64,000 nt of DNA from Chitinophaga pinensis (GCA_943324745.2 CALPMT020000008.1:27715-91714), one strand, 5' to 3'; shown: positions 57 to 12,774, numbered from the stretch's first letter. Numbers and translations are program-made. Notes: generated by a model from the letters alone, not told the origin.

Positions 57-97
57 AAACTCCACTAAAAACAATTCGAGTGGAGTTTGTTTTTTTT
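57..97 (+). terminator. Rho-independent terminator-like hairpin, probably closing a + strand gene upstream of the window; it abuts the stop of the minus-strand gene at 96
   Basis: AAACTCCAC (57-65), 14-nt loop, GTGGAGTTT (80-88), then G plus a T8 run (90-97). Confidence 0.55.
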
Positions 98-680
98 ATT
101 TCTTTAAAATTATCTCATAATACTTATGCTTATTCGAAACCGGAGAAGTCTCAGGAAAAGGAACGACGTACACTTTCATTGTTCGTCCTAGGAAATTTGT
201 TTCACCTAAATAGTCGTATGCAATCTCATCATCTTCATTTTTTCTAGACTTCCAAATTTGCTTTAAGGTTTCGTCCATTTTTAAAAATTCATCGGTAACA
301 CGTTTTCCCATTAACACAATCTTATCTGGGTCAGCATTTTTCAAGCGGTCTTTCAAACTTTCCAAATGCGATGATTCTACCTTCACAGAATTCGAATTTT
401 TACTTGTTATAGCGTTATCATCAATCATATCTGTAAACCCCAAACCATCCGGGTATGCAGATAAGTTTCCGGAAATAAAAACTTCACTGGCCATGTGTTC
501 GAATGGATAGGTGTTTTCTGTACGCGTACATTCACTTATTAACCCAGCATCCTTAAGTATTTTCCAAAAATGAACGCGCGTACAAAAAACGGAACCGATA
601 TTTAGCGCTTCTTCAGTTGCATTTAATCCTATAAAAACAATTCCATTTTTACCTGCTAAAAATTTTGTGTGTATTGACAT
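96..680 (-). CDS. Uracil-DNA glycosylase superfamily protein, family-2 (MUG/TDG)-like, divergent
   Basis: By-eye alignment to E. coli Mug: IVFIGLNATEEALNIGSVFCTRVHFWKILKDAGLI vs [42 protein letters not shown] vs GVTKLVD; IVLMGKRVTDEF vs LAILGKQAYEQGF; VYVVPFPETSPVS vs IWVLPNPSGLS. The Asn of GINPG is retained (GLNAT). Confidence 0.6.
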   Translation of the reverse strand: MSIHTKFLAGKNGIVFIGLNATEEALNIGSVFCTRVHFWKILKDAGLISECTRTENTYPFEHMASEVFISGNLSAYPDGLGFTDMIDDNAITSKNSNSVKVESSHLESLKDRLKNADPDKIVLMGKRVTDEFLKMDETLKQIWKSRKNEDDEIAYDYLGETNFLGRTMKVYVVPFPETSPVSNKHKYYEIILKK

Positions 681-740
681 AATAGTATAGATTTTAAAAT
701 TAATTAATGAAAAAATATTTGATAATAAACGAGTTAAATA

Positions 741-1193
741 TTATTCAAAAGTACCTAACTCTTTTAAATAATTCCTTAGTAAAATCGTGAGATAATTTAA
801 TACAAAATCACATTCAAGGATTGGTTCTTGGTAATTGAATAGTACTTCATCTACTATTTCGTAGTCATCTAATTCTGTTAAATTAGAGGAAGGATTAAAG
901 ATGTTGTAAATGTGTTTTTCAAGTAGGAATCGTCGTGTGTAATTTAGTTTCAGTGCAAGTTGATTATCGACTACTTCAAAATATAAATTAATAATGAATG
1001 GTTTATGAATTGATTTTGAGATTTTAAAAACATAGCAATCGACTTTTCTGTCAAATTTTACATGCAATTGCTCTTTTTCAATTTCTTTTCTCCAGGAGGA
1101 GATCCATAAAAACAATTGATGATTCCATTCAGAGACTAAAAAAAATCCATTTTCAGCATGTAATTTTTCGACATTTTTTTTCCAACTTTCCAT
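741..1193 (-). CDS. Hypothetical cytoplasmic protein, paralogue A of a two-member family (immunity-protein-like)
   Basis: 150 aa, ATG start, no signal peptide. Shares the MESWKKN/MENWKRN start, a W-x3-L-x2-W-x3-W motif and C-terminal DFVLNYLTIL/EFVLSYLNIL with 2031..2450. Confidence 0.6.
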   Translation of the reverse strand: MESWKKNVEKLHAENGFFLVSEWNHQLFLWISSWRKEIEKEQLHVKFDRKVDCYVFKISKSIHKPFIINLYFEVVDNQLALKLNYTRRFLLEKHIYNIFNPSSNLTELDDYEIVDEVLFNYQEPILECDFVLNYLTILLRNYLKELGTFE

Positions 1194-1291
1194 ATTCTTT
1201 TAGATTAAGTGTTACATATAAATAAGGAATGATTTATTTCAAATGTGACATTATCACTCAAAATAAATTTTTAATTAAAATTAAAACAGTA

Positions 1292-2008
1292 TTATAGATA
1301 GTAATAATTGTGTCGGAATCTCTTTTTTACCAATATAACAACATTAATACTTTGACTATTTTTATGGGTAAAGACACAAATTTGAAGATTTCTCAAACGC
1401 TTACTTCCTAAATCTTTTTTTAGTTTTTTGTTTTCAGAAATACCAACAACTATGTTTTTTAAAATCAGATCATCACATATATAGTTTAAGTGTCGCATCA
1501 TCAAACTTTTTTTGGAATAGTAGACATACGCCTTAGCGAAGTCTTCAAGAAATTCATCTTGCCACAAAGTATCCAATTTTAAATGATTATTGAACTTTAC
1601 ATTGTTTATTAAATACAACGTATCTATTAAAGCATAATTAAATGGGATAAAAGTTCCTAGTGTATCTATGGAGGAAACATTAACTCCCCAAGATTTTAAA
1701 AATTCGAATTCTACTTTCGTTGGATTGATTTTAAAATCAATGTGATCTTCGGAAGTGTATTTTAAATTACCATTTTCATCATATGCAGTTTCATCGTAAT
1801 AGTAAAAATGATATGGGTTTTGTTCCAATTCTAACGCTCTTTCTTTTTCTGCTTTTGCGATAGAGTCTTGCATCCTTTTTTCTTTGAAAATTTGGAGAAT
1901 GGCCTTTATTTTTTTTGTGTCTCGTATATTTACGGTTACGGATTTATCTGTTTGACCAAGTAAACAAAAACTTGTAAAAATTAAAAATGTCATCGTTAAA
2001 AGTTTCAT
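1292..2008 (-). CDS. Hypothetical secreted protein or lipoprotein
   Basis: 238 aa; N-terminal hydrophobic segment MKLLTMTFLIFTSFCLLGQ (signal peptide, possible lipobox Cys); no recognisable domain. Confidence 0.55.
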   Translation of the reverse strand: MKLLTMTFLIFTSFCLLGQTDKSVTVNIRDTKKIKAILQIFKEKRMQDSIAKAEKERALELEQNPYHFYYYDETAYDENGNLKYTSEDHIDFKINPTKVEFEFLKSWGVNVSSIDTLGTFIPFNYALIDTLYLINNVKFNNHLKLDTLWQDEFLEDFAKAYVYYSKKSLMMRHLNYICDDLILKNIVVGISENKKLKKDLGSKRLRNLQICVFTHKNSQSINVVILVKKRFRHNYYYL

Positions 2009-2030
2009 AGTATTTAGTTTTAAAGGTGAA

Positions 2031-2450
2031 TTATAAATGATTGTATTTTGTATAATAGTTTATAAACAAAATGTTAAGGTAGGATAGCACAAATTCTTTT
2101 TCATGAATTGGGTCTGTTTTTCTGGATATTTCTTCAATGGTATTTGTATATGTTTCAGTTTGATGATCGTAATGTAGCGTATATTCTATCCATAAAATTT
2201 GATCATAAAGAGCCGTTTGTTCATCAAACTTTAAAAAATAGTATAAACTAATTGTTTGTTCGATATCATTTGAAAGTGAGATTTCAATATCCTTTCCATT
2301 ATTTTTTACTTGAATATTACCAAGCTTAATTTGTCCCATAAACTCCCCCCATTCTTCGACCCATTCTTCTAGTAGTTTATTCCATCCTATGTAGAGGATT
2401 AACTCTTCTTTATGAAGGAATTCCAAAATGTTTCTTTTCCAATTTTCCAT
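2031..2450 (-). CDS. Hypothetical cytoplasmic protein, paralogue B of 741..1193 (immunity-protein-like)
   Basis: 139 aa; same N- and C-terminal signatures as 741..1193; only 22 nt upstream of the secreted-protein gene. Confidence 0.6.
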   Translation of the reverse strand: MENWKRNILEFLHKEELILYIGWNKLLEEWVEEWGEFMGQIKLGNIQVKNNGKDIEISLSNDIEQTISLYYFLKFDEQTALYDQILWIEYTLHYDHQTETYTNTIEEISRKTDPIHEKEFVLSYLNILFINYYTKYNHL

Positions 2451-2487
2451 GGTTATTTTTTTTTAATAATTAGTGAAAAATGGTGAT

Positions 2488-2850
2488 TCAATCGGCATAA
2501 GCCAATTGAATCTGAAGTTTAGATATGAGGTAAGTAGAAAGCATATCTTTTAAGTAGTTGACACCTTTTAAACGAAGTGATTCTCTCAAATTTTCATCTG
2601 AACGGATTAATGAAATTGTTGTAGGTTTTTGAAGGTGAGAGGGAAGTGTTGAAATAATTAGAGTGCCAGAAGATTTAGGTATCTTTTTTAATAATTGATT
2701 AAAAGACTCTCTTATGTGATTTTCATTTTCAATGAATGCATAATCAAAACCAGACTTTTTTTGAGAATTTGGATTTGTTTTAATGCGATTTTTGGTAATT
2801 GAAAAAGTTAAATTGTTTGTGGAATTAATTTGAATAGTTTTCATAATCAT
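2488..2850 (-). CDS. Hypothetical protein
   Basis: 120-aa ORF with ATG at 2850 and 2844, co-directional, 37 nt from the next gene; no motif recognised. Confidence 0.45.
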   Translation of the reverse strand: MIMKTIQINSTNNLTFSITKNRIKTNPNSQKKSGFDYAFIENENHIRESFNQLLKKIPKSSGTLIISTLPSHLQKPTTISLIRSDENLRESLRLKGVNYLKDMLSTYLISKLQIQLAYAD

Positions 2851-3036
2851 AAAAGTTTTAAGTAAATATTAGTTATATATTTAATTAAGCTGTGTGACTA
2901 TGATTATGTGACAATAAATTTTAATAAATTTTAATAAAATTTATAATAACCTCAAATACATTATTTTATTTTTAAATTTTATCTCAAATGAAATTTAAAT
3001 GAACTCAATTCTCAATGCAAATAGAAATAGTACGTA

Positions 3037-3681
3037 TCAATAAAACATATCTCGTCGGTAAATAAACTCGCTTCGAGCTCCTAATGGAAAATCTTGTTTA
3101 TCTTCATTAAAATAGAGATACCTTCTTGTATAAATTTTTGTGATGTTTAGTTCTTTTCGATATTCAGCTATTTGTTTTTTTATCTCTTTATTTTCTCTAC
3201 CATGTAGGGAAATAGAGTGATTTCTACCCTTTATTTTATCTTTTCCAGACACAACTACATACATCTTTTTAATGTAAAACACATCTAATACTTCAAATAA
3301 ATCCATAGCGTATTTGGGTATACGACTTTCAGTTGCAATATAATCTTGGTTATCTTCCATATACTCTTTTGGTCCATTTTTCATATTTGGATCAATATAC
3401 CAGTCTGCGTCGAACAAGGTGGTGTCAATGCGCCAATAATCATATTTAATTAGATTCTCATTACGAAAGGTATCATTGTAAATCTCGAGACAAAACGGGT
3501 AGAATAATGTGATTTTTTTTCCGTGATTATTTGCGAAGACGCAATTATGTTCACTTTTATCAGGTCGTAAGCCAAATTTAAAAATTGTATCTCTATTCTC
3601 TCGTAATGTTACATGCCAAACAAACATCTGAGGGATGATTTTTTTGATACCAGGTACATCGGCTAAATTTTTGTAATTCAT
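3037..3681 (-). CDS. Hypothetical protein (214 aa)
   Basis: Long ORF with ATG start and coding-like composition; no confident domain assignment. Confidence 0.55.
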   Translation of the reverse strand: MNYKNLADVPGIKKIIPQMFVWHVTLRENRDTIFKFGLRPDKSEHNCVFANNHGKKITLFYPFCLEIYNDTFRNENLIKYDYWRIDTTLFDADWYIDPNMKNGPKEYMEDNQDYIATESRIPKYAMDLFEVLDVFYIKKMYVVVSGKDKIKGRNHSISLHGRENKEIKKQIAEYRKELNITKIYTRRYLYFNEDKQDFPLGARSEFIYRRDMFY

Positions 3682-3782
3682 AGTTATAGATTTTAATTAT
3701 TAAACATTAAGAAACCACTATTAAGGAACTATATCACTATTTCATTCAATTCATAGATTATACTATTATTAAACAATTAGAT

Positions 3783-4337
3783 TTACTTTTTTATAAGCAC
3801 TCCAAAATCAACATTAACCGAATAAACATAATCATTATCTATTTTTTTAGCACTTTTCACTATTGCTACACCTACTATATTGGTGAATTCTGAAGATAGA
3901 TCTTCGCAAAGCATTATTTCTTTATGCTTTGGGGAACTGTCAAAAGCTGTAATCATCCTATTAGCAATTTCAGTGATAGTTGCAATATTTTTTATAGGTT
4001 AATATGCTATTTGAATCTCACTCCAAATATTTTTATTTGGAAGCATTTCAATCCTTTGACCGAAAGTTAGTTCAATATGATCTTTTATATCAAATTGCTC
4101 GTCATGTGGTAATTTATCATAATGCACTACATGAATTAAATTGGAGCATTGAACAAGATACTTGGCATGATATCGGGCTACTTGGGAAACTTGCGAGTCA
4201 TATTTAACGGGACCTAATTTATGTTGTTTACGATAAACATTAAGTTGTTTAATAAATTCGGTTTCTAAAGTAGATTGTGCGTTTGACTTTTCTGCAAAAA
4301 GTGACAGTATACAAATCACATAAAATAATTTTTTCAT
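3783..4337 (-). pseudogene. CAP/SCP (YkwD-like) secreted protein gene interrupted by one in-frame TAA
   Basis: The track ORF (4337-3999) has a signal peptide plus a CAP N-terminal half (LNVYRKQHKLGPVKYDSQVSQVARYHAKYL). After the TAA at 4001-3999 the same frame stays open to a TAA at 3785-3783. It encodes the CAP C-terminal half (AFDSSPKHKEIML...IVGVAIVKS...YVYSVNVDFG). Confidence 0.7.
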
Positions 4338-4433
4338 AATAATTTGATTTTAAATGATTAATGATTTTATTAATTCTCATTTGACCAATATTTCGTAAAA
4401 ATTTCATTAGTATATTTTGAAGAAAACAAAATT

Positions 4434-4916
4434 TCATATAGAAAAACATTTTTCTAAAATTTCCATCGTTTTGTTTTCAATACCAGGGTATTTTGACTCT
4501 CTATTTCCAGCCACATTTAAAATTATTTTTCTAGATTTTTTGTTAAAAATTTCTTGCACAAAATTCACTATTTTTTCGGAAGCATCTAGATCGTTAATAT
4601 CCACTAATACATACTCTTTCTCGAATTTTTCACAGATTTTTTTAGTTAAATCAGAACCTCTAGATTTTACCCCAGTTAGTATAACAGTAGCATCTGTTTT
4701 ACGTACATTTTGTTCCGTTCTATCTTTATAATCAGATTTAGTAGACTCATACATACTATATCTAACTTTAAGACTAAGATCTATTCCGTCTTCAGTTTTA
4801 CACCCTTTAGGTAAACAACCACCAGTAGCGATTCCTGCTTTTTTTGCTGCTTTTAGAGCACCTAGATCTACACCAGTTTGACCGCCTGATACAATTTTTA
4901 ATGTTAAATTTTTCAT
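4434..4916 (-). CDS. SLOG-superfamily protein, putative molybdenum-carrier / YpsA-like family
   Basis: N-terminal KIVSGGQTGVDLGALKAAKKAGIATGGCLPKG matches the SGGQTGVD..AL...GG..P.G signature of that family (from memory, Pfam PF12694-like); 160 aa stand-alone. Confidence 0.6.
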   Translation of the reverse strand: MKNLTLKIVSGGQTGVDLGALKAAKKAGIATGGCLPKGCKTEDGIDLSLKVRYSMYESTKSDYKDRTEQNVRKTDATVILTGVKSRGSDLTKKICEKFEKEYVLVDINDLDASEKIVNFVQEIFNKKSRKIILNVAGNRESKYPGIENKTMEILEKCFSI

Positions 4917-5251
4917 AAATAATGTTTAAGAGTTTATATTTCCTTATCATTATTTATAAGTGTAGTTTCATTAAAATTGTGTCAAAAAAAAGTGTAAATT
5001 AATTTATATTTTGAAAATAAATTATTAACTATCATTTGTTGAGTTAGTTAACTTATTTCTTTTTTATCTGAATATTTGTTAAAACATCAATAGTTAATGT
5101 TTCATTATGGTGTTTGATTGATTTCAAAGGAAAATATACTCTTGTAAAAAATAATACTTACTTGATTAGAAATTCTATAAAAGGCGAGTAATAATATATG
5201 CGTGATATATTATTAAAATCTAAAAGTTTATTTTTTTCAATTTTTCATACA

Positions 5252-5286
5252 AATAAAAAACGCTCCTACAATAAGTAAGAGCGTTT
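5252..5286 (-). terminator. Rho-independent terminator closing the 11187-5313 operon
   Basis: On the minus strand: AAACGCTC, 13-nt loop, GAGCGTTT, then TTTATTTG; it starts 26 nt after the stop at 5313. Confidence 0.7.
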
Positions 5287-5312
5287 GTTTTATTTAGTTG
5301 TTTTATTAAAGT

Positions 5313-6395
5313 TTAAGGTAAATCAAAAGCATTTCTAATGAATAGTTCATGGGGATTTTGATTGGTAGCATCATAAGTACAACATAGAAAATATGGTTGT
5401 TGGGTGGGGGGAGGTAAACTCCCTTTTAAACTTAGACTATTAGGAATTGTATGACAAATTAAACTATGTAATAAAGGTAAAGTACCTATATTAATTTTAT
5501 ACGCAAGATAATGATGCACGGTTGGTGGACCACTGAATGCAACTTTTATATTAGTATTTATATCAGCATTTTGATCCTCTTTTAAACCTATTAAAATATC
5601 ACCAATTTTAGTTTGAAGTCGTTTATAAAAAAAGTCTGATACACCTTTAGATTTAATTTTTTCCTTATATTACTTGTAAATTTTAAAGAAAATGGAAATA
5701 AATCAATTAATAAATATCCTTCTTTTGCAAGTTCTAATAATAGATTTATTTTTTCATTTGAATTTGTAGGTTTAGCGTAAGCAATTCTTGTTGGCTTTGA
5801 ATCACGAAAAGCCTTTACTGGAGCACTTAACCAAGATGTAGAATCCAAATGATTTATATTATAGAAATAAGTTTCTCCAGAACTAGGTGCAGCTTCACCG
5901 ATCATAACGTATTTAAGAGTTTGCTTAGTCAATTTGTTTCCATCACTATCTATTAGTTCTCCAATTTCATTAAAAAACGGATGTGGATAATACCAATCAC
6001 TACATAATTTAGGACCTCTGGTTTTTCGTGTGTCCTTACCTCTAAAAATGTCTAAATAATCTTCAAACATATTTTCTCTAATTAAATAGTCATAATTGTC
6101 GTCAGGGCAATTATTTGGGTTGTCATTTTCTTTTAGAGTTCTTCTAATAGCTAGACTTTTAAAATGATCGTCCCACAATTCTTTATACATATTCCTTTGT
6201 AACATGAATCCAGGGGTTTGCTGAAGTTTCTCTCTTAATCTAGATAATATTTTACGACCAAATTCTTCACTAATTACCAAGTTCAACCCATTTTTGTTGA
6301 ATAAGTGCAATAAACTTGTAGGATTCATCTTCGGAATAGGAACAATTAATTAATAGTTCAAAATATTCTTTTTCTTTTTTTGTTAAGTTATACAT
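5313..6395 (-). pseudogene. Frameshifted gene (two frame changes): sigma-70 region-4-like HTH module plus a C-terminal domain with UDG-like motifs
   Basis: ATG 6395 gives MYNLTKKEKEYFELLINCSYSEDES...WVELGN, then TAG at 6272-6270. The paralogue alignment continues in track ORF 6328-5591. A third frame is open 5669-5313 and overlaps across an A6 run (5657-5662). Motifs: YVMIGEAAPSSG, LIDLFPF, CHTIPNSLS. Confidence 0.6.
6210..6384. repeat. Direct repeat copy 1 (HTH-encoding module shared with 7875..8065)
   Basis: Aligns with 7875-8065 apart from one 21-nt indel; the 48-nt core 6321-6368 vs 8006-8053 is 45/48 identical. Confidence 0.8.
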
Positions 6396-6412
6396 GATTA
6401 TGAAATTGTTAA

Positions 6413-8896
6413 TTAAAAACCTAAATCCCCCATATCAGCAGATAATTTTGCAGTACTACTGTCACCATAAATATATTTATATATTAACTTTGCTTGAGCT
6501 CTAAACTTTGATTTAGCTTTAAAATTTTCATTAGCTACCCAATCTGAAAATAGTTCATCTGTCTCTTTGTTAAATTTCAAAACTTTATCTCCCTCATATT
6601 TCCATACTACATAATTCCTGTCTTCACCTTCTACTGGATTTGGATTTGGTACTATGAGTTTATATAAAGTTTTATCTTCAAATTTTTCAAAAGCAATATT
6701 ATCATATTTCCCTGTAAATATTAGTTCTTCTTTTTCGCTAATATTTAAATCATTTAAACATTCTTTTAATGATTCTAAATCTTCCTTTTTTACTCCTTCT
6801 TTTAACTCTTTTTTTATTTCATCTTGTATCAGTTGAATAGTCTCTGGATCTAATGTACAATCAGATATAGCTTCAAGCGAGTCATTAAAAATTAGACAAG
6901 TTTTTAAGTGCATTAGCATAGGATTATCTATGTAATTTAAAGATGAATCCGCTAAATAACGATATTGAGCAGAATCATTTAAATAATGATGTTTTCTTAA
7001 ATCTACAATCTTATTTAAGATTTCAGAAATATGTTGAGATATTAAATTTTCATATAATCGATACGGACTATTTTTCTTTGTAGGGTTCATTAATTCAAAT
7101 GCTTTCTCCAAATCTTCATCGCCTTTTATCATCCAATATGCAATAATTTGAGCAATTGCTTCTTGTGTTTTTTTATGCCCCGTATTGTAACCGATTCTCC
7201 AATTGGCATTATTAGCAATAGGCCAATGAGAAACCCAATGCCCTAATTCGTGCATCAATACAATTAATCGAACATCTTTTTCATCGATGTTATCATGGTT
7301 TTTAACATATGCTTCAATAACATCTTTATACAATATAATTTTACCTTCATTTGTTACATTAAGACAACCTAATTTAGTTTTTGTAGATCTATAAACACCT
7401 AATCTATTTATGTTAAAAGATTCAGAGTTTACATACTTATCCAAATCAAACAAATCTTTTTTCTCAACACCTGTTAAAGTTTCGTGATTTGCTATTTTAT
7501 CTTTAATATTTTTGGGAAGGTCTGTTTTTATGCAATTTTCATATCGGAATATACCTTCTTCTTTATCAGAATTTTTCGTATGTAATTCGTTAATTAATGA
7601 TTCATTTAACTCTTCCAATTTGTTTTTAAAATAAACTTTTGGGAAACGATCTATTTCAAACTTGAAATTTGGTTTTTTAGTATCATTTTTATCTTCATTT
7701 TGAAGTATCTTTTTTAATTCAAGCATTTTCTCCAACTCTTCAGGTGAAAACTGATATGCTACTAATTTATTTGAGTTAGTTTTTGTATACATATTAGCTA
7801 AAAGAAAATCTAAAGCTTCAATACCTTCTGTATTGTCTGTGTCTAGGGTAATAAAATGAAGTCCTTCCTTTATACCAGGAACACTTAGAAGTTTTTCCCG
7901 TAATCGAGATAATAATTTTCGACCATTAACTTCTTTATTACCAAGTTCAACCCATCGTTTTTGAACAAGTGCTAAAAATGATTTTTTTTTATCGATAGGC
8001 TCATTGGATTCATCTTCGAAATAGGAACAATTAATTAATAATTCAAAATATTTTTTTTCTTGTGGTGATAATCTGATTGAAGAAGAATATACTTTTCGGG
8101 CAAAATCTCTAATTTTTTCTACGTGGTCTTTCGTGTCAAAGTCTTCATACATTTCATCCGATAACTCAGGAAGACCATTCAAGTTTTCTATATTCGTGAA
8201 TGCAGATTTTTGTGTACTGTCATATGCTTCATCTGCTATACCATCTAAAAGAGAATTCCATTTTTTTTGTGCCTTTATAATATTTGCATCTTCTTTAAAT
8301 TCATCTTCCAAGACATTAATTGACCAAAGACTATTCATCATTCGAATAAAATATCCTGGACTTATGTCATTTATGGATTGTTTCGGAATCCGAGTATATC
8401 CCTCCACTAATCGATCATAGGCTGCATTTTCATCTTGTTTTATTAATAATCTAAAATAATTTTCATATATTCTTATTATTGAATTTCGTTCTTTTTTTGT
8501 CCAATGAGGAAATGTTTTTTCTAAAAATTCGTCGGATAATGTTAAATAACTTCTGATATCATTAGAATTATAAAAAAGATGGTTTAATTGATTTTGTATA
8601 TTTTTTAAGGTATTTCTTTTGTATTTAATTATTTCAGGCTCAACTATTACTGCTTTTTTATCTGTGTCATCTTCTTTAATCTTCTTTTTAGGAACGTATT
8701 TTTTAATTACTTCTATATTAATTATTGCATATCTTGCTTTTTCAATAATTTCTTCATTGGTGATATCCGGATAATATTCTTTGCATTTTTCGTTGAACCA
8801 GTTAGCTAATTTTTTAGCGGATTCCTTTTTTTTATCGGATATTTTCCCTTTTTCAATTGTTAAATTTTCGAATATTCTTGTTAAATCGTTTAACAT
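6413..8896 (-). CDS. Large multidomain protein: helical N-terminal region, sigma-70 region-4-like HTH (about aa 276-340), HExxH Zn-metallopeptidase site (ImmA/IrrE-like spacing)
   Basis: 827 aa, ATG start. LSPQEKKYFELL...GRKLLSRLREKLLS resembles a sigma r4/LuxR-type HTH. VLMHELGHWVSHW (H549-E550-x-x-H553, nt 7252-7235) has Glu 26 residues downstream (QEAIAQIIAYW). Confidence 0.85.
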   Translation of the reverse strand: MLNDLTRIFENLTIEKGKISDKKKESAKKLANWFNEKCKEYYPDITNEEIIEKARYAIINIEVIKKYVPKKKIKEDDTDKKAVIVEPEIIKYKRNTLKNIQNQLNHLFYNSNDIRSYLTLSDEFLEKTFPHWTKKERNSIIRIYENYFRLLIKQDENAAYDRLVEGYTRIPKQSINDISPGYFIRMMNSLWSINVLEDEFKEDANIIKAQKKWNSLLDGIADEAYDSTQKSAFTNIENLNGLPELSDEMYEDFDTKDHVEKIRDFARKVYSSSIRLSPQEKKYFELLINCSYFEDESNEPIDKKKSFLALVQKRWVELGNKEVNGRKLLSRLREKLLSVPGIKEGLHFITLDTDNTEGIEALDFLLANMYTKTNSNKLVAYQFSPEELEKMLELKKILQNEDKNDTKKPNFKFEIDRFPKVYFKNKLEELNESLINELHTKNSDKEEGIFRYENCIKTDLPKNIKDKIANHETLTGVEKKDLFDLDKYVNSESFNINRLGVYRSTKTKLGCLNVTNEGKIILYKDVIEAYVKNHDNIDEKDVRLIVLMHELGHWVSHWPIANNANWRIGYNTGHKKTQEAIAQIIAYWMIKGDEDLEKAFELMNPTKKNSPYRLYENLISQHISEILNKIVDLRKHHYLNDSAQYRYLADSSLNYIDNPMLMHLKTCLIFNDSLEAISDCTLDPETIQLIQDEIKKELKEGVKKEDLESLKECLNDLNISEKEELIFTGKYDNIAFEKFEDKTLYKLIVPNPNPVEGEDRNYVVWKYEGDKVLKFNKETDELFSDWVANENFKAKSKFRAQAKLIYKYIYGDSSTAKLSADMGDLGF
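7875..8065. repeat. Direct repeat copy 2 (inside the 827-aa gene)
   Basis: See 6210..6384. Confidence 0.8.
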
Positions 8897-8960
8897 ATTT
8901 AAAATTTTTAATTTTTATATTTCAAACCTAAATATTATATTCCGATATAAAAAATGAAAA

Positions 8961-9242
8961 TCATCTAAACCAGTTAATTAGTATTTCAATCTCTATTTTA
9001 TCTTCTTCAAAATCCTCATTTAGAAGACGTTTAATAGCATTGTACTTGATTTCAATCTGCTTTAATTGGTCATATAATTCTTTTGTTTTTACAGTATGCG
9101 CAGTAAGTAAATCATATCTCTGGTCCTTAATTAAAGTCTTGACTTTTTCAGTTTCTTCTTGTAACAAAATAAAAGCGGACTGTAGGTTTTTTAGACCATT
9201 CATTATTTCTTGTAATTCATTTTTTAAAAATTCGTTTGTCAT
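8961..9242 (-). CDS. Small coiled-coil protein (93 aa)
   Basis: ATG at 9242-9240 overlaps the TGA (9241-9239) of the upstream gene as ATGA. The sequence MTNEFLKNELQEIMNGLKNLQSAFILLQEETEKVKTLIKDQ... is heptad-like and charged. Confidence 0.6.
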   Translation of the reverse strand: MTNEFLKNELQEIMNGLKNLQSAFILLQEETEKVKTLIKDQRYDLLTAHTVKTKELYDQLKQIEIKYNAIKRLLNEDFEEDKIEIEILINWFR

Positions 9243-9736
9243 CGTAAATAAAAGTTTAGTAAATAAAATAGTCCATAAAACAAAGCACTTAATCCGAGAG
9301 AACAAAGTAAAAATGGGTAACTATTTTTTAGATAATACCAAAAAGGTGTAATTCGATACCAATCTAAAGAATCATCGAAGATAGAATCTCTATCCTCATT
9401 TATCACACGATTTGGACCCCATTCTTTTTCATCCATCGGATTACATTCGATATCTTCTTCTAAAATATCTTCTTGAATCAGGCATCGATCTATCACTAAT
9501 TTTCGTGTTTGAACAATATAATAAACATCCATTATATACAAATTTGCAAGTATTGGTAGTATGAAATAGGTTCCTATATTGACTTCGATGAAGAAAACTA
9601 CAAAAAATAGAAATAATTGAAAATAAAAAGGAACTCCGTTTGGTAATGGAATCTTTCCAAAGACTTTCCCAAATCGTTGGTGTAATTCTAACTTTCTTAA
9701 GTAATAAACTGTTTTATCTAATTCATTTTCTGTCAT
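9239..9736 (-). CDS. Small integral membrane protein (165 aa)
   Basis: Hydrophobic hairpin FYFQLFLFFVVFFIEVNIGTYFILPILANLYIM and C-terminal TM PFLLCSLGLSALFYGLFYLLNFY, with an acidic loop between them; 29 nt downstream of the AAA+ gene. Confidence 0.7.
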   Translation of the reverse strand: MTENELDKTVYYLRKLELHQRFGKVFGKIPLPNGVPFYFQLFLFFVVFFIEVNIGTYFILPILANLYIMDVYYIVQTRKLVIDRCLIQEDILEEDIECNPMDEKEWGPNRVINEDRDSIFDDSLDWYRITPFWYYLKNSYPFLLCSLGLSALFYGLFYLLNFYLR

Positions 9737-9765
9737 AAGAGTTGAGTTTTTGATAATTATTATTC

Positions 9766-11187
9766 CTAACAGCGAAATCCAATTTTCCCATTGGATTTTA
9801 ATAAACCATCTTCTTGCAATATCGTTTCAATTTCATTTTGATTTAGTTCGCCTAATTCGCTTAATAATTCCATTTTAAGTTCGCAGTTTACTAATTGTGC
9901 AGGAGTCCAGTCGGATTGAATAATTTGTTTAGAAAATACTTTTGAAATTCGTTGATTGATTGGGGAAGCATGCATTAATAGTTCTCTTACTTCTACAGAT
10001 GGAAAATCAATTTTTGATTTAAATAAAAATCTTCGTTCGAATGCTTTATCCATATTTTTCTCCATATTGGTTGTCGCAATTAATATCCCTTTGAAGTTTT
10101 CTAATAATTCTAAAATCTGCGCTTGTAGTTGATTTGAGAAGATGTCATTACTTTGGTTAACAGCAACGCGTTTATTCATTAAACCATCCGCTTCATTCAA
10201 AAGAAGTATTACAGGACGGTCTGTTTCTCGTGCTAAAGTATGATATGCTTTAAAAAGTTGTTTAATGTTTTTTTCTGATTCACCAATCCATTTTGAAACA
10301 ATTTTAGTGTAATCTGCATGCATCAAAATTGCATTTGTGTTTTTTGTCAATTGATATACAAATTCTGTTTTCCCAGTGCCCGAAGGACCAAATAATAAAG
10401 TAGTCAATGAATGCTGCAAGTGTTTTTTAGCGTGAATGATTCCTTCTAGCGAATCGAAAAGTTTTCTGTTTGAAGCATTGTAATGTAAAGTGATTGGTTT
10501 GATGTCGTTTGAATCGATTAAAGAATAAAAATCATACTGTTTTGTTTTTATTTCTTCTAAAATTGGCACATCCAATCCGTTCATTAACATGACACATCTT
10601 TTAGTCGGAGCAATTCTAGCACAAATTCCATTCTCAATTTTTACGTTTAACAATTCTTGCTCCATGTTTTTCGCTTCTTGGTCTATAAACAATTGTGTTA
10701 TTTGATAATGTTCAGTAGGGGATAATTTAATTTCACTTAAGAAAACAGGATGATCATTTTCTAAAAAATGACTAACAACATAAAGTAAAATTTTTATTTC
10801 TAGATCATTTATTTTGTTGCTAATTATAAAGTCTAAAAATGTGTTTTGAAAGTTTTTTCCAAAAAATGCATGCTTAAAATCAAGAAATTTTTTCGCATTG
10901 GTGTTTGCTAAAAAGAAATTGAAAAGTAGATATCCTTCCTTATAAAAGAGGTTTAGTTCACTTTCCTCAACATTGGAGGATTGATTTAATTCAACCGATA
11001 AGGAGGAACTATTTCTCCCAATTTTGAGTTTTATTTTACCCGATTTTAAATTTAAAAACAAACATTTTAGATTGGTTAAAGAATGACCATTAAAAAAGTT
11101 TTCGTTTAAACAAATGGTTTCTTGGTTTGCCAGTTTTTGAATTGCTAACTTTAAACTTGACACACTATTTTTCTGGATACTATTCAT
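9766..11187 (-). CDS. Classic-clade AAA+ ATPase with an unassigned N-terminal region of about 230 aa
   Basis: Walker A LLFGPSGTGKTE, Walker B VILLLNEADGL, sensor-1 ILIATTNM, arginine pair AFERRF, then IDFPS. Confidence 0.9.
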   Translation of the reverse strand: MNSIQKNSVSSLKLAIQKLANQETICLNENFFNGHSLTNLKCLFLNLKSGKIKLKIGRNSSSLSVELNQSSNVEESELNLFYKEGYLLFNFFLANTNAKKFLDFKHAFFGKNFQNTFLDFIISNKINDLEIKILLYVVSHFLENDHPVFLSEIKLSPTEHYQITQLFIDQEAKNMEQELLNVKIENGICARIAPTKRCVMLMNGLDVPILEEIKTKQYDFYSLIDSNDIKPITLHYNASNRKLFDSLEGIIHAKKHLQHSLTTLLFGPSGTGKTEFVYQLTKNTNAILMHADYTKIVSKWIGESEKNIKQLFKAYHTLARETDRPVILLLNEADGLMNKRVAVNQSNDIFSNQLQAQILELLENFKGILIATTNMEKNMDKAFERRFLFKSKIDFPSVEVRELLMHASPINQRISKVFSKQIIQSDWTPAQLVNCELKMELLSELGELNQNEIETILQEDGLLKSNGKIGFRC

Positions 11188-11342
11188 AGAGTTGGATTTA
11201 TATATGATTAATATTGAGTAAATTACTAATGATTTTGTATTCTTTTAAAACCGTTAGAATCGGTTTAATCTATTATTTTAGATAAATCAGGAAATAGAAT
11301 ACGATTTTTGAACTTAAATAAGTCTAATATATATTTGCACTA

Positions 11343-11804
11343 TTAATCTATACTATATATTCCATACGGATTACTAATACCTTTAAAACTTAAATTACCT
11401 CGTTCATCAACGCTAAAAGTAATTTGCCAAGGGATTAATGCATCCCCAGTTTCGGGATCTGTAGTCTGATATTGAAATCCAAGAACGTCTTTATCGTCAA
11501 GTATGTTTTTTAAACCGTGCTCTAAAATATAAATAGCAAATTCATATTCCTCAAAAGAAGATCCTTTAGAAATGGAATCAAATTTTACTTTATCTAATGT
11601 CGTTTTACACTTTGTCTTTAAAGTGTCTATTTCAACAACAAGAGTAACGATGGAATCATTTTTTATTTCTTGACTTAATCCAGTGAATAGGATACTTGAA
11701 GAAAGTATGATTAAAACTAACATATACTTGCATTTGTTAGACTGATTGTTTTTGACATTAAAATCTAATGGGACTTTTGTTGACATTATCAACTTACTTT
11801 TCAT
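11343..11804 (-). CDS. Hypothetical membrane-anchored or secreted protein
   Basis: 153-aa ORF; hydrophobic segment MLVLIILSSSILFTGLS after a basic N-terminus (an internal start at 11723 is possible); no domain recognised. Confidence 0.5.
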   Translation of the reverse strand: MKSKLIMSTKVPLDFNVKNNQSNKCKYMLVLIILSSSILFTGLSQEIKNDSIVTLVVEIDTLKTKCKTTLDKVKFDSISKGSSFEEYEFAIYILEHGLKNILDDKDVLGFQYQTTDPETGDALIPWQITFSVDERGNLSFKGISNPYGIYSID

Positions 11805-12266
11805 AATCTTTTATTTTAAGAGTGAATATTCGCTTCTTAAATAGATAACTAACAAAAGATAATTTTTGTGACAGAATTTTTAATGTTTTTAAAAACTATT
11901 TTAATAACGTGTAATTCTTTAATATATTGATTGTGATTTTGAATTTCAGAAAGGAGCAGAAATTAAATGGATTTCTTTAATACAGAGGGAGGGTTTAATT
12001 TATTAAATCAGAATGTTTCAATTTTTACTTTGTTAAAATCAACTTATAATCTTCTGCGTAAATCTGTATGTAATCCCCCTTTTTTTCCTCCACTAATATA
12101 TTATCCTTTTATTATTTTCTAAAATAATTGAAATTTTCTCATCAAACATTTATTCAGTTTGTTACGTTTCAATACCAAACATTACCTCTTTGCGAAAAAA
12201 TTATTTAATAGAATAAGTTTTCAATTGTGGGCTAGATGTGGGCTAGTTCTTAACTTTGCCCTAAAC

Positions 12267-12325: not shown

Positions 12326-12373
12326 CTTTATCTCTGATTCGTCACGCGTAACTAAATACTCGTCACTTCCTTG

Positions 12374-12774
12374 TGGAGCTGGAGGGGGTTGAACCCTCGT
12401 CCAAACATAGAATTTTCAAGGCTTCTACATGTTTAGTTTTTGGTTAATTTTCGATTGTACAACGGACAAAAACACCCAATATACAACTTATCTTCTGTTG
12501 TCTTATGCCTTCCACGAAGTAAGGTTGGCACCAGTCTTAAATGAATGATTCTCCCGAGTTCCATGCCTAAAAGACGGAGGCAGCGGAGGGAGAACTTGTT
12601 CCGCCTACTATGATTCAGCTGGAATTAAGCTTTATCTATCTAATAGATTAAGCAGCAAGTGCGTATGACGTGTTGTCAATTATAGTTCGAGACAGGATAT
12701 TAAAGAGCTCCACCTCAACGCTCTACATGCTTACACTTGACTATCGCTTATGCTGTCAAATCCAATACAGCCCC
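12374..12774 (-). ncRNA. ssrA: tmRNA (transfer-messenger RNA)
   Basis: 5' GGGGCTGTATTGGATTTGACAGC. 3' GGACGAGGGTTCAACCCCCTCCAGCTCCA forms a T-arm plus a 7-bp acceptor stem with a G3-U pair. Tag frame 12677-12648 reads GAC AAC ACG TCA TAC GCA CTT GCT GCT TAA (...DNTSYALAA stop). The terminal CCA is not fully encoded. Confidence 0.95.

What the first reader, a model, noticed from the sequence alone, without database searches (positions are those of the whole stretch)
6210..8065. Direct repeat of about 180 nt encoding the same HTH module in two adjacent genes (main gene plus orphan-cassette layout)
Segments 6210-6384 and 7875-8065, both coding on the minus strand, align end to end except for one 21-nt indel. 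A 48-nt core (6321-6368 vs 8006-8053) is 45/48 identical. The protein alignment is LSPQEKKYFELLINCSYFEDES..SFLALVQKRWVELGNKEVNGRKLLSRLREKLLSVPG versus MYNLTKKEKEYFELLINCSYSEDES..KFIALIQQKWVELGN(S)EEFGRKILSRLREKLQQTPG. Similarity stops abruptly at both ends. The two genes therefore share one module but have unrelated C-terminal parts, a Zn-peptidase region in one and a UDG-like domain in the other. This resembles polymorphic loci (Rhs/CDI type), where a downstream orphan cassette shares a constant segment with the main gene. Recombination between these direct repeats would delete about 1.67 kb and fuse the first 340 or so aa of the 827-aa protein to the UDG-like domain.
Basis: partly seen in the sequence, partly recalled or inferred. 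Interest (0 to 1): 0.65.

Follow-up and report, generated by a model that had tools for sequence, protein, structure and literature searches.

The report
Duplicated HTH segment, dead fusion gene
A 180-base piece of one gene, coding for a probable DNA-binding module, was copied onto the front of the next gene in one lineage of a freshwater Flavobacteriia bacterium. That fused gene is now broken in this genome, so the repeat is an ordinary domain-shuffling scar and not a gene-switching device.

Summary
The repeat is real. Copy A (7874-8071) lies inside an 827-aa gene. Copy B (6209-6386) lies 1.67 kb downstream on the same strand. They share 140/177 nt, with a 45/48 core, a 21-nt indel and one extra T; the next-best 48-mer match in the window is 28/48.

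Copy B sits between the stop codon of the 827-aa gene and the ancestral start codon of the next gene. That gene belongs to a ~300-aa family with no Pfam match and only a weak UDG-like fold signal. Eight related loci, and all but one of the 120 listed database homologues, lack copy B.

Copy B is therefore a lineage-specific addition that created an HTH-plus-X fusion gene. In this genome the fusion is a pseudogene with two 1-nt frameshifts, at 6272 and after 5650. Four independent run assemblies reproduce both frameshifts. Near-identical contigs from other lakes carry the unshifted base at each site, and one 1,044-nt contig (P0010/L014) is in frame across both.

The Rhs/CDI orphan-cassette reading is not supported:
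- Homology is short and only 79% identical.
- Copy B has its own start codon.
- No immunity gene is present.
- No recombinant junction appears in any relative or contig.
- Recombination would delete the conserved peptidase region rather than swap a variable tip.

The finding is ordinary, although both gene families are uncharacterised and highly mosaic.

The parts
6413..8896 (-). Large gene of 827 aa: an N-terminal helical region, the HTH module, a zincin-like HExxH domain, and a variable C-terminal region. It has no Pfam, NCBIfam, PADLOC or PHROG match.
   Evidence: ORF. Family scans. Nine close homologues and 144 distant ones whose conserved core is aa ~485-660. AlphaFold model.
7874..8071 (-). 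Copy A of the repeat. It codes for aa 276-341 (LSPQEKKYFELLINCSYFEDESNEPIDKKKSFLALVQKRWVELGNKEVNGRKLLSRLREKLLSVPG), a three-helix sigma-r4/LuxR-like HTH module.
   Evidence: Helices 278-291, 307-317 and 322-337. RpoH region 4 as top PDB profile hit. The module is conserved in distant relatives (alignment A5).
7238..7252 (-). HELGH (aa 549-553), the putative zinc-binding motif of the conserved domain.
   Evidence: HELGH is identical in the nine close homologues (A3). H549, H553 and E579 are conserved in at least 90% of the 70 aligned sequences (A4). Sub-threshold Zincin_1 (PF06262) hits in three homologues.
6209..6386 (-). Copy B of the repeat, a second and diverged copy of the HTH-coding segment (LTKKEKEYFELLINCSYSEDESYKFIALIQQKWVELGN/SEEFGRKILSRLREKLQQTPG). 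It shares 79% nt with copy A and lacks 21 nt.
6393..6395 (-). Start codon of the copy-B ORF, 17 nt after the stop of the 827-aa gene. Relatives have an 18-nt spacer before the start of their downstream gene.
6272..6272 (-). Frameshift 1: an extra T inside copy B creates a TAG, ending the ORF after 41 codons. The base is absent in near-identical contigs from other lakes.
   Evidence: '6272 left out' in runs X6, X10 and X8. In frame in P0010/L014. Present in X1-X4 contigs with 0 differences.
6203..6205 (-). Ancestral start codon of the downstream gene (MLQRNMYKELW...). It corresponds to the ML..Y.DLW start of all relatives and marks the right-hand boundary of the inserted segment.
5313..6395 (-). 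The whole downstream gene as it would read if repaired: about 360 aa, the HTH module plus a ~300-aa domain of an uncharacterised family (weak UDG-fold echo). In this genome it is a pseudogene split into 41-aa, 245-aa and 68-aa reading frames.
   Evidence: Three-frame translation. Orthologues of 284-316 aa. 154 homologues. AlphaFold model with pLDDT 87.7.
5650..5651 (-). Frameshift 2: one base is missing. Relatives read KKLNSKGVSDFFYKRLQ. Contigs from two other lakes have an extra A here on the + strand.
   Evidence: 'A put in behind 5650' in X6 and X7. In frame in P0010.
5258..5286 (-). Terminator-like hairpin with a T tail, 27 nt after the stop (5313) of the restored downstream gene. It is the likely end of the operon.
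   Evidence: The same hairpin follows the big gene in L016, which lacks the downstream gene.

Best explanation
The repeat is the scar of a domain-shuffling event in a fast-recombining island.

Shown:
- A ~190-nt segment encoding the HTH module of the large HTH-zincin gene is present a second time, in the same orientation, exactly between that gene's stop codon and the original ATG of the next gene.
- This gave the next gene, a ~300-aa protein of an uncharacterised and possibly UDG-fold family, a new start codon and an N-terminal HTH.
- The fusion exists only in this narrow lineage.
- In near-identical populations from other lakes each frameshift site carries the unshifted base, and one 1,044-nt contig (P0010/L014) is in frame across both.
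- In this genome the fusion gene has been inactivated by two 1-nt frameshifts.

Inferred:
- Copy B is as far from copy A (79%) as allelic versions of the module are from each other. It therefore came from a diverged allele of the big gene, or from an old duplication carried on a divergent allele of the downstream slot. It is not a recent in-place copy.
- In the intact form the HTH would tether or co-target the downstream protein to the same DNA or partner as the big protein.
- In this genome copy B has no function, and the repeat is not used for switching.
For: - The repeat is real and far beyond chance.
- Position: 17-nt spacer, then ATG, then the module, then the ancestral ATG.
- Eight related loci lack copy B. 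In L002/L003, L004, L005-8, L009 and L010/11 the downstream gene starts ML..Y.DLW 18 nt after the big gene's stop. L015 has a different downstream gene 106 nt after the stop, and L016 has none.
- Of the 120 listed homologues of the downstream family (154 found), every one except P0010 aligns to at most 83% of the 360-aa query. The seven sequences read include four that start ML at the ancestral start and two with unrelated N-terminal extensions.
- Both frameshifts are reproduced with 0 differences in four independent run assemblies at 23-39x word depth.
- Contigs 97-99% identical to the window, from four runs of three other studies plus an ENA contig, carry the in-frame base at 6272 and/or 5650.
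- Nucleotide identities: copy A vs L009 copy A 97%, copy A vs L002 copy A 79%, copy A vs copy B 79%, L009 copy A vs copy B 80%.
- 18 nonsynonymous against 6 synonymous codon differences between the copies.
- A second pseudogene lies in the same island: the CAP-like gene has an in-frame stop.
- The big-gene family is a mosaic of alternative N-terminal, middle and C-terminal segments, which shows frequent recombination among alleles.
Against: - The donor allele of copy B was not found; the closest sampled module is 80% identical.
- The steps that produced the structure are not reconstructed. They could be a tandem duplication followed by an internal deletion, a template switch, or import of a ready-made fusion.
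- The intact form is seen only in short, low-depth contigs of 3.5-6x, and P0010 diverges from the family at its last 12 residues near the contig end. No complete intact fusion gene is in hand.
- The function of the HTH, and of either protein, is untested.
- The 48-nt core is much better conserved than the rest (3 vs 34 differences, Fisher p = 0.003, window chosen after the fact). This could reflect a short gene-conversion tract or a DNA-level constraint.
Confidence: 0.75

Rival explanations
1. The locus is a polymorphic main-gene plus orphan-cassette system of the Rhs/CDI type. Homologous recombination between the two copies deletes 1.67 kb and puts the downstream domain onto the N-terminal 340 aa of the big protein, switching its C-terminal activity.
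For: - The repeats are direct and would be in frame if the extra T were absent.
- Both gene families are highly mosaic between strains, and the downstream slot holds very different alleles.
- The 45/48 core could serve as a crossover point.
Against: - No junction appears in four full-coverage run assemblies, in eight related loci, or in partial contigs of eight other runs.
- Seven independent relatives have no second copy at all.
- Copy B has its own ATG at the normal spacing and is in frame with the downstream domain in sister populations. Rhs orphans lack initiation signals (PMC3967940).
- Identity is 79% over 177 nt, with a longest exact run of 21 nt. The working Rhs case has 95% over 522 bp.
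- No immunity-like gene follows; a ~26-nt gap and a terminator-like hairpin follow the stop.
- The shared segment is not at a constant/variable boundary. What follows it in the big gene, the HExxH domain, is the most conserved part of the family.
- There are no RHS, CdiA or secretion-related domains.
- In this genome any recombinant would still hit the second frameshift.
Confidence: 0.04
2. The fusion is ancestral. The downstream family originally carried the HTH module, from an old tandem domain duplication, and the relatives lost it.
For: - The two copies are 21% diverged, which suggests age.
- The first residues of the downstream family (MLTRREYEDLW) faintly resemble the start of the module (LTKKEKEYFELL).
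Against: - It would need many independent, precise losses that each restore an ATG 18 nt after the upstream stop.
- The listed family members from distant Bacteroidota, other than P0010, do not cover the module. Those read start at ML or carry unrelated N-terminal extensions.
- L009, whose copy A is 97% identical to the window's, lacks copy B.
Confidence: 0.08
3. Copy B is kept for a DNA-level or small-peptide role. For example, the 20-nt near-palindrome in the conserved core could be a protein-binding site present twice in the operon, or the 41-aa truncated product could act as a decoy of the big protein's HTH.
For: - The 48-nt core is 94% identical against 74% for the rest.
- The core contains GAACAATTAATTAATAGTTC, which occurs only at the two copies. 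About 0.08 matches are expected by chance in the window.
- The 41-aa ORF is seen on 26 contigs.
Against: - The palindrome spells ELLINCS with the AT-rich preferred codons and is not kept in the L002-type allele.
- There are no further sites in promoters of the window.
- The 41-aa product lacks the third (recognition) helix.
- Sister populations carry the in-frame base instead.
Confidence: 0.06
4. The repeat or the frameshifts are assembly or sequencing artefacts.
For: The genome is a metagenome-assembled genome, and the first frameshift (6272) lies in a TT doublet.
Against: Four separately assembled runs reproduce 4900-9000 with no difference or gap at 23-39x. The repeat is also present in independent ENA and Logan contigs from other lakes. 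The two copies are too diverged to be a collapse or duplication error.
Confidence: 0.02

Closest known systems
Gene fusion or domain accretion by partial intra-locus duplication (domain shuffling), followed by pseudogenisation
   Same: A short coding segment of one gene is found again, in frame, at the 5' end of a neighbouring gene, giving a new two-domain architecture. It is restricted to one tip lineage and is later inactivated by frameshifts.
   Different: The copy is 21% diverged from its neighbour, so the donor was probably another allele. The exact rearrangement steps are not recovered.
Rhs/CDI main gene plus orphan toxin cassettes (Poole 2011, PMC3150448; Koskiniemi 2014, PMC3967940)
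   Same: A downstream reading frame shares a direct-repeat segment with an upstream larger gene. The locus is polymorphic between strains. Recombination would make a chimera.
   Different: There are no Rhs, CdiA or secretion features and no DPxGL/VENN boundary. The shared segment is followed by the conserved part of the big gene, not the variable part. Copy B has a start codon, there is no immunity gene, homology is 177 nt at 79% rather than 522 bp at 95%, and no chimeras occur in relatives.
HTH repressor plus metallopeptidase regulator pairs of mobile elements and defence operons (ImmR/ImmA, DdrO/IrrE, CapH/CapP; bioRxiv 10.1101/2022.04.27.489752)
   Same: An HTH and a zinc-peptidase-type domain are encoded directly upstream of a putative effector in a variable island. 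In a distant locus the equivalent upstream gene is a WYL-domain protein, which I recall as another regulator type of defence operons.
   Different: Here the HTH and the HExxH domain are in one 827-aa polypeptide. The HTH looks like the sigma-r4/LuxR type, not XRE. The peptidase domain is not M78/COG2856 by any scan. No regulatory role was tested.
Uracil-DNA glycosylase superfamily (PF03167), including family 4/MUG-like enzymes
   Same: A three-layer alpha/beta model with parallel strands. A G-E-A-A-P motif follows strand 1, where I recall UDGs carrying GQDPY, GINPG or GEAPG. UDG, TDG and MUG proteins dominate the weak Foldseek hits in two libraries.
   Different: There is no significant match: best E is 0.15 (BFVD) and 0.65 (first UDG-type hit in PDB), with TM at most 0.42. 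Pfam is negative. hhalign against the island's own true UDG is negative.
IetA/IteA-type AAA+ ATPases of the IetAS anti-phage system
   Same: The 473-aa AAA+ protein four genes upstream matches IetA models (PADLOC 5e-21, NCBIfam IteA 3e-20) over the ATPase core.
   Different: Scores are far below the NCBIfam equivalog cut-off (72.6 vs 510 bits). The partner is not an S8 protease. The match may only reflect the shared AAA+ fold.

Membership tests
Rhs/CDI-type main gene + orphan cassette locus | The orphan shares the constant region that lies immediately upstream of a variable C-terminal toxin, at a conserved demarcation motif (DPxGL / VENN). | tested here: not met
   The shared segment is aa 276-341 of 827. 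It is followed in the big gene by the family's most conserved domain, aa ~485-660. No such motif and no RHS or CdiA domains were found.
Rhs/CDI-type main gene + orphan cassette locus | The orphan lacks translation initiation signals and depends on recombination for expression. | tested here: not met
   Copy B has an ATG 17 nt after the upstream stop, the same spacing as the normal start in relatives. It is in frame with the downstream domain in sister populations.
Rhs/CDI-type main gene + orphan cassette locus | Each toxin cassette is followed by a cognate small immunity gene. | tested here: not met
   After the restored stop at 5313 come ~26 nt and a terminator-like hairpin at 5258-5286. The next gene is a cpYpsA SLOG protein ~400 nt away.
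Rhs/CDI-type main gene + orphan cassette locus | A long, near-identical homology tract, and chimeric (recombined) forms in other strains. | tested here: not met
   177 nt at 79% with a longest exact run of 21 nt, against 522 bp at 95% in the Rhs case. No chimera in eight related loci or in contigs of 12 DNA runs. Contigs cannot exclude rare variants.
Sigma-70 region 4 / LuxR-GerE type helix-turn-helix (the shared module) | A compact three-helix unit with helix 2, a turn and the recognition helix, and sequence-profile similarity to known members. | tested here: inconclusive
   AlphaFold helices at 278-291, 307-317 and 322-337, with pLDDT 87-94 in the helical blocks. The profile of 13 module sequences hits RpoH (region 4 and region 3 stretches) at E = 0.0067 and GerE at E = 0.23; the other hits are designed helical proteins. 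Pfam gives no hit even at E <= 10. DNA binding was not tested.
Zincin metallopeptidase (the big protein's conserved domain) | An HExxH motif plus a downstream third ligand in a conserved alpha/beta domain. | tested here: inconclusive
   HELGH at 549-553 is identical in the nine close homologues. H549, H553 and E579 are conserved in at least 90% of the 70 aligned sequences. Domain pLDDT is above 90. Only sub-threshold Zincin_1 hits (E = 1e-3 to 6e-3) in three homologues. Foldseek with the whole multi-domain model was uninformative.
Uracil-DNA glycosylase superfamily (the downstream gene) | The UDG fold with motif A after strand 1 and motif B (HPS-like), plus significant profile or structure similarity. 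| tested here: inconclusive
   A good model (pLDDT 87.7). The top weak Foldseek hits are enriched in TDG, UNG and MUG proteins but none is significant (E >= 0.15, TM <= 0.42). Pfam, the PDB profile search and hhalign against the island's PF03167 protein are all negative. GEAAP and SGPPxxHH motifs lie at the analogous positions (alignment A2); this is inference.
ImmR/ImmA-, CapH/CapP-type HTH + metallopeptidase regulators | A separate XRE-family repressor and an M78/COG2856 peptidase that cleaves it. | tested here: not met
   Here there is a single polypeptide with no XRE or Peptidase_M78 match in Pfam, NCBIfam or PADLOC. This is a functional analogy only.

The most novel reading that the evidence does not exclude
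The operon is an uncharacterised, hypervariable conflict or anti-phage module of freshwater Bacteroidota. It consists of an IetA-like AAA+ ATPase, two small proteins, the HTH-zincin protein and the UDG-fold-like protein, and it sits in an island next to the tmRNA gene. Under this reading, alleles diversify by swapping segments, and moving the sensor/regulator's HTH onto the effector was a functional innovation that re-targets the effector. It would not be a neutral accident, and it was later lost in this population.
Probability: 0.15. Interest if true: 0.5.

Novelty: new member of a known kind. Interest (0 to 1): 0.25.

Why it matters
The repeat itself matters little. It is a dated example of how a DNA-binding module can hop onto a neighbouring gene and how quickly such fusions decay.

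The surroundings have more value. Two co-transcribed gene families have no database annotation, and they show cassette-like mosaicism between strains. They sit with an IetA-like ATPase, a SLOG protein and a true UDG in an island beside the tmRNA gene. If that island is a defence system, the natural series could guide experiments on what the HTH contributes. The series comprises the no-module form, the in-frame fusion, the broken fusion and the form with no downstream gene.

Tried and rejected
- A protein search with the 63-aa copy-B peptide returned only the 41-aa ORF itself, because the word index is too sparse for short queries.
- A metagenome-contig scan with a degenerate 24-nt core pattern gave 5 unrelated chance hits.
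- Viral contigs, the phage collection and the plasmid collection hold no relatives of either gene. The island is therefore not obviously phage- or plasmid-borne.
- Foldseek with the whole 827-aa model was uninformative, because it is multi-domain with pTM 0.50. The model could not be cropped.
- A PDB profile search with the downstream family found nothing. With the big family it found only two E ~ 0.6 nuclease hits, which I dismissed.
- Programmed frameshifting was considered and rejected. There is no slippery motif at either site, the stop follows immediately, and sister populations simply carry the in-frame base.
- An X5 contig 'joint' from 8063 to 6357 at depth 2.7 was examined. It comes from a 190-nt low-depth contig of a relative that aligns partly to each copy, so it is not evidence of rearrangement.
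- A 72-aa ORF upstream of a distant family member (L012) was checked as a possible free-standing module. It is unrelated.
- A search for an att-type repeat of the tmRNA 3' end within 22 kb found none.
- A literature search for cpYpsA gave nothing relevant.


Full report
**Observation**

The region carries five co-directional minus-strand genes in series:
- an AAA+ ATPase (9766-11187);
- a 165-aa ORF;
- a roughly 93-aa ORF;
- an 827-aa ORF (6413-8896);
- a broken reading frame that runs down to 5313.

The repeat finder reports two adjoining direct-repeat blocks. These are 6310-6386 vs 7995-8071 (77 nt, 84%) and 6273-6314 vs 7937-7978 (42 nt, 86%).

In codon register, copy A is 7874-8071 (aa 276-341 of the 827-aa protein) and copy B is 6209-6386. 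They share 140/177 nt and 41/59 aa. The 48-nt core is 45/48 identical, and the next-best 48-mer match in the whole window is 28/48. At protein level the match is E = 3e-20.

Copy B is not part of an intact gene here. It starts with an ATG at 6393-6395, 17 nt after the big gene's stop. It runs 41 codons and then hits a TAG created by an extra T at 6272.

The frame that continues through the rest of the module and the downstream domain is offset by one base. A second frameshift, a missing base after 5650, breaks that domain again. The true C-terminus lies in a third ORF that ends at 5313. A terminator-like hairpin follows at 5258-5286.

**Are the frameshifts real?**

Logan contigs of four separate lake-water runs (X1-X4, one study) reproduce 4900-9000 with zero differences and zero gaps at 23-39x word depth. 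The public MAG contig (GCA_943323335.2) shows the same gene calls.

In runs from three other studies, contigs 97-99% identical to the window differ precisely at the two sites:
- one base is left out at 6272 in X6, X10 and X8;
- an A is put in behind 5650 in X6 and X7.

An ENA contig (L014) is 97% identical to window 5552-6527. It encodes P0010, a continuous MYNLTKKEKEYF...WVELGNSEELGRK...TPGFMLQRNMYKELW...KKLNSKGVSDFFYKRLQ protein. So the fusion ORF is in frame in sister populations and is a pseudogene in this one.

**Comparative anatomy**

The 827-aa protein has only nine close database homologues. Their contigs, plus two GTDB genomes, gave eight independent related loci.

In L002/L003, L004, L005-8, L009 and L010/11 the downstream gene begins ML(K/T)..Y.DLW exactly 18 nt after the big gene's stop. 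None of these has a module. L009 is among them although its copy A is 97% identical to the window's.

L015, a Flavobacteriia MAG, has a quite different 246-aa gene in that slot. L016 is 98.7% identical to the window from 12000 down to 6731. It then switches to another C-terminal type, lacks the downstream gene, and runs into an IS3-like orfA.

A search with the repaired 360-aa protein found 154 homologues of about 300 aa. Of the 120 listed, all except P0010 align to at most 83% of the query. Four of the seven sequences read start at the ancestral ML, and two longer ones carry unrelated N-terminal extensions. Copy B is therefore a lineage-specific insertion that converted the neighbour into an HTH-X fusion.

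**Origin of copy B**

Copy B is 79-80% identical to the window/L009 type of copy A and 72% identical to the L002 type. The window and L002 alleles of copy A are themselves 79% identical. Codon differences are mostly nonsynonymous, 18 against 6.

Copy B thus behaves like a third allele of the module and not like a fresh copy of its neighbour. It shares CTTAACAAAA at its 5' edge with the L015-type allele, and its 3' edge abuts the ancestral ATG.

The preserved 17-18-nt spacer plus ATG fits a tandem duplication of the interval from module start to next-gene start, followed by an internal deletion. It also fits import of a ready-made fusion allele. I cannot tell these apart, and the donor was not found.

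**What the parts are**

Module:
- Distant relatives conserve the pattern L-t-x-x-E/Q-r-x-L-f-x-l-l-i ... F-i-x-E-V ... G-v-t-x-x-N-f-R-x-L-x-x-R-L.
- AlphaFold predicts three helices with pLDDT around 90.
- The module profile's best PDB hit is RpoH sigma region 4 (E = 0.0067), with GerE at 0.23.
- Pfam is silent.
- Sigma-r4/LuxR-like HTH is the best reading, but it is not proven.

Big protein's conserved core (aa ~485-660):
- It carries HELGH, with H549, H553 and E579 conserved in at least 90% of the 70 aligned sequences.
- Three homologues give sub-threshold Zincin_1 hits.

Downstream family:
- The model is good (pLDDT 87.7).
- Its weak Foldseek hits in both PDB and BFVD are dominated by UDG, TDG and MUG proteins, but none is significant.
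- hhalign against the island's own genuine UDG (96-680, PF03167 E = 5.8e-7) is negative.
- 'UDG-like' remains a lead only.

**Testing the orphan-cassette model**

In the benchmark Rhs case the main and orphan genes share 522 bp at 95% identity. The orphan lacks initiation signals and is followed by an immunity gene, and the same orphan CT is found fused to full-length Rhs in other strains (PMC3967940).

Here the situation differs on every point:
- The tract is 177 nt at 79%, with a longest exact run of 21 nt.
- Copy B has its own ATG.
- No immunity-type gene follows.
- The segment after copy A in the big gene is the conserved domain, not a variable tip.
- No chimera occurs in eight relatives or in contigs of twelve DNA runs.

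That criterion is met. Contig data cannot exclude rare recombinants, so deep raw reads would be needed for that.

**Context**

The island (window ~96-11800) lies at the 3' side of the tmRNA gene (12373-12774). Its far flank differs between genomes.

The island contains:
- an AAA+ ATPase with IetA/IteA-like similarity;
- a cpYpsA SLOG protein;
- a CAP-like gene that carries an in-frame stop in this genome;
- a true UDG.

The big gene family is a patchwork of two N-terminal, two middle and two C-terminal types in different combinations. The downstream slot is equally variable. Distant members of the downstream family follow a DUF2779 or a WYL-domain gene, near AAA+ ATPases, an integrase and a restriction enzyme. 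All this suggests an uncharacterised conflict-type module. PADLOC, PHROGs and NCBIfam do not recognise it, and no function was tested.

**Verdict**

The repeat is real, and the explanation is ordinary. It is a lineage-specific domain duplication and fusion in a recombination-prone island, and in this genome it is already a pseudogene. The switching interpretation is not supported. Interest is low for the finding itself and modest for the unannotated operon around it.

Noticed in passing
window 12373-12774 (-): A tmRNA gene (tag DNTSYALAA) has its 3' end facing the ~12-kb island that holds the finding. tmRNA genes are, from my own knowledge, classic integration sites for islands. No integrase was found, and no repeat of the tmRNA 3' end within 22 kb of L001.
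   Followed up: partly
window 3783-4337 (-): The CAP/SCP-like secreted protein gene has an in-frame stop (…EIQIAY*PIKNIATI…), giving 112-aa and 57-aa ORFs. Relatives have one 183-184-aa gene. This is a second pseudogene in the same island of this genome.
   Followed up: yes
window 96-680 (-) and 4434-4916 (-): The island also carries a genuine UDG-superfamily gene (PF03167, E = 5.8e-7, above the cut-off) and a cpYpsA SLOG-family gene (PF12694, E = 2e-39). Both are conserved in the related islands.
   Followed up: partly
window 9766-11187 (-): The 473-aa AAA+ ATPase at the head of the operon matches IetA/IteA anti-phage ATPase models (PADLOC 5e-21, NCBIfam 3e-20) over the ATPase core only, far below the equivalog cut-off.
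   Followed up: partly
window 6413-8896 vs P0002-P0009 (alignment A3): The big-gene family is a mosaic. It has two unrelated N-terminal types (MLNDLTRIF… and MSYIDDLLGK…, each ending in an HTH-like segment), two middle segments and two C-terminal types, in different combinations in different strains.
   Followed up: partly
L016 (CANCJF010000114.1) 3361-9300; window 6731-12000: A GTDB MAG is 98.7% identical to the window down to position 6731, inside the big gene. It then carries the other C-terminal type, has no downstream gene, keeps the same terminator hairpin, and is followed by an IS3-like orfA.
   Followed up: partly
L004 10001-12171; L005 9053-11085: In two related loci the big gene is itself split into two overlapping ORFs (630+93 aa and 542+138 aa). 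Frameshifts or decay of this gene therefore recur among relatives, unless these are metagenome assembly errors.
   Followed up: no
L015 3091-3831; L004 12190-13077; L005 11104-11772: The slot after the big gene holds very different alleles. One is a 246-aa protein with a GMESAPGG motif, and others are chimeras whose N-terminal halves (…LWVNPAPAGFGMPLH…) differ from the window type. This slot is the most polymorphic part of the operon.
   Followed up: partly
window 6340-6359 and 8025-8044: The best-conserved 48-nt core of the repeat contains a 20-nt near-palindrome, GAACAATTAATTAATAGTTC. It occurs nowhere else in the window. It coincides with codons for ELLINCS and is not kept in the L002-type allele, so it is probably a by-product of AT-rich codon use.
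   Followed up: yes
L012 6302-11937; L013 8909-10897: Distant members of the downstream family sit directly after a DUF2779 protein (with an AAA+ ATPase, an integrase and an Eco57I-type enzyme nearby) or after a WYL-domain protein. These are defence-island-like neighbourhoods.
   Followed up: no
window 6203-6240 vs 6360-6390; L009 5142-5175: The first residues of the downstream family (MLTRREYEDLW; ATGTTAACAAGAAGAGAATATGAAGA) resemble the start of the module (LTKKEKEYFELL; TTAACAAAAAAAGAAAAAGAATATTTTGAA). This purine-rich microhomology could have mediated the rearrangement.
   Followed up: no
window 5357-5646 and 6843-7373: Two freshwater metatranscriptome runs (X21, X22) hold short contigs 95-98% identical to parts of the big gene and of the 3' part of the downstream gene. 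Related alleles are therefore transcribed at least at trace level.
   Followed up: partly
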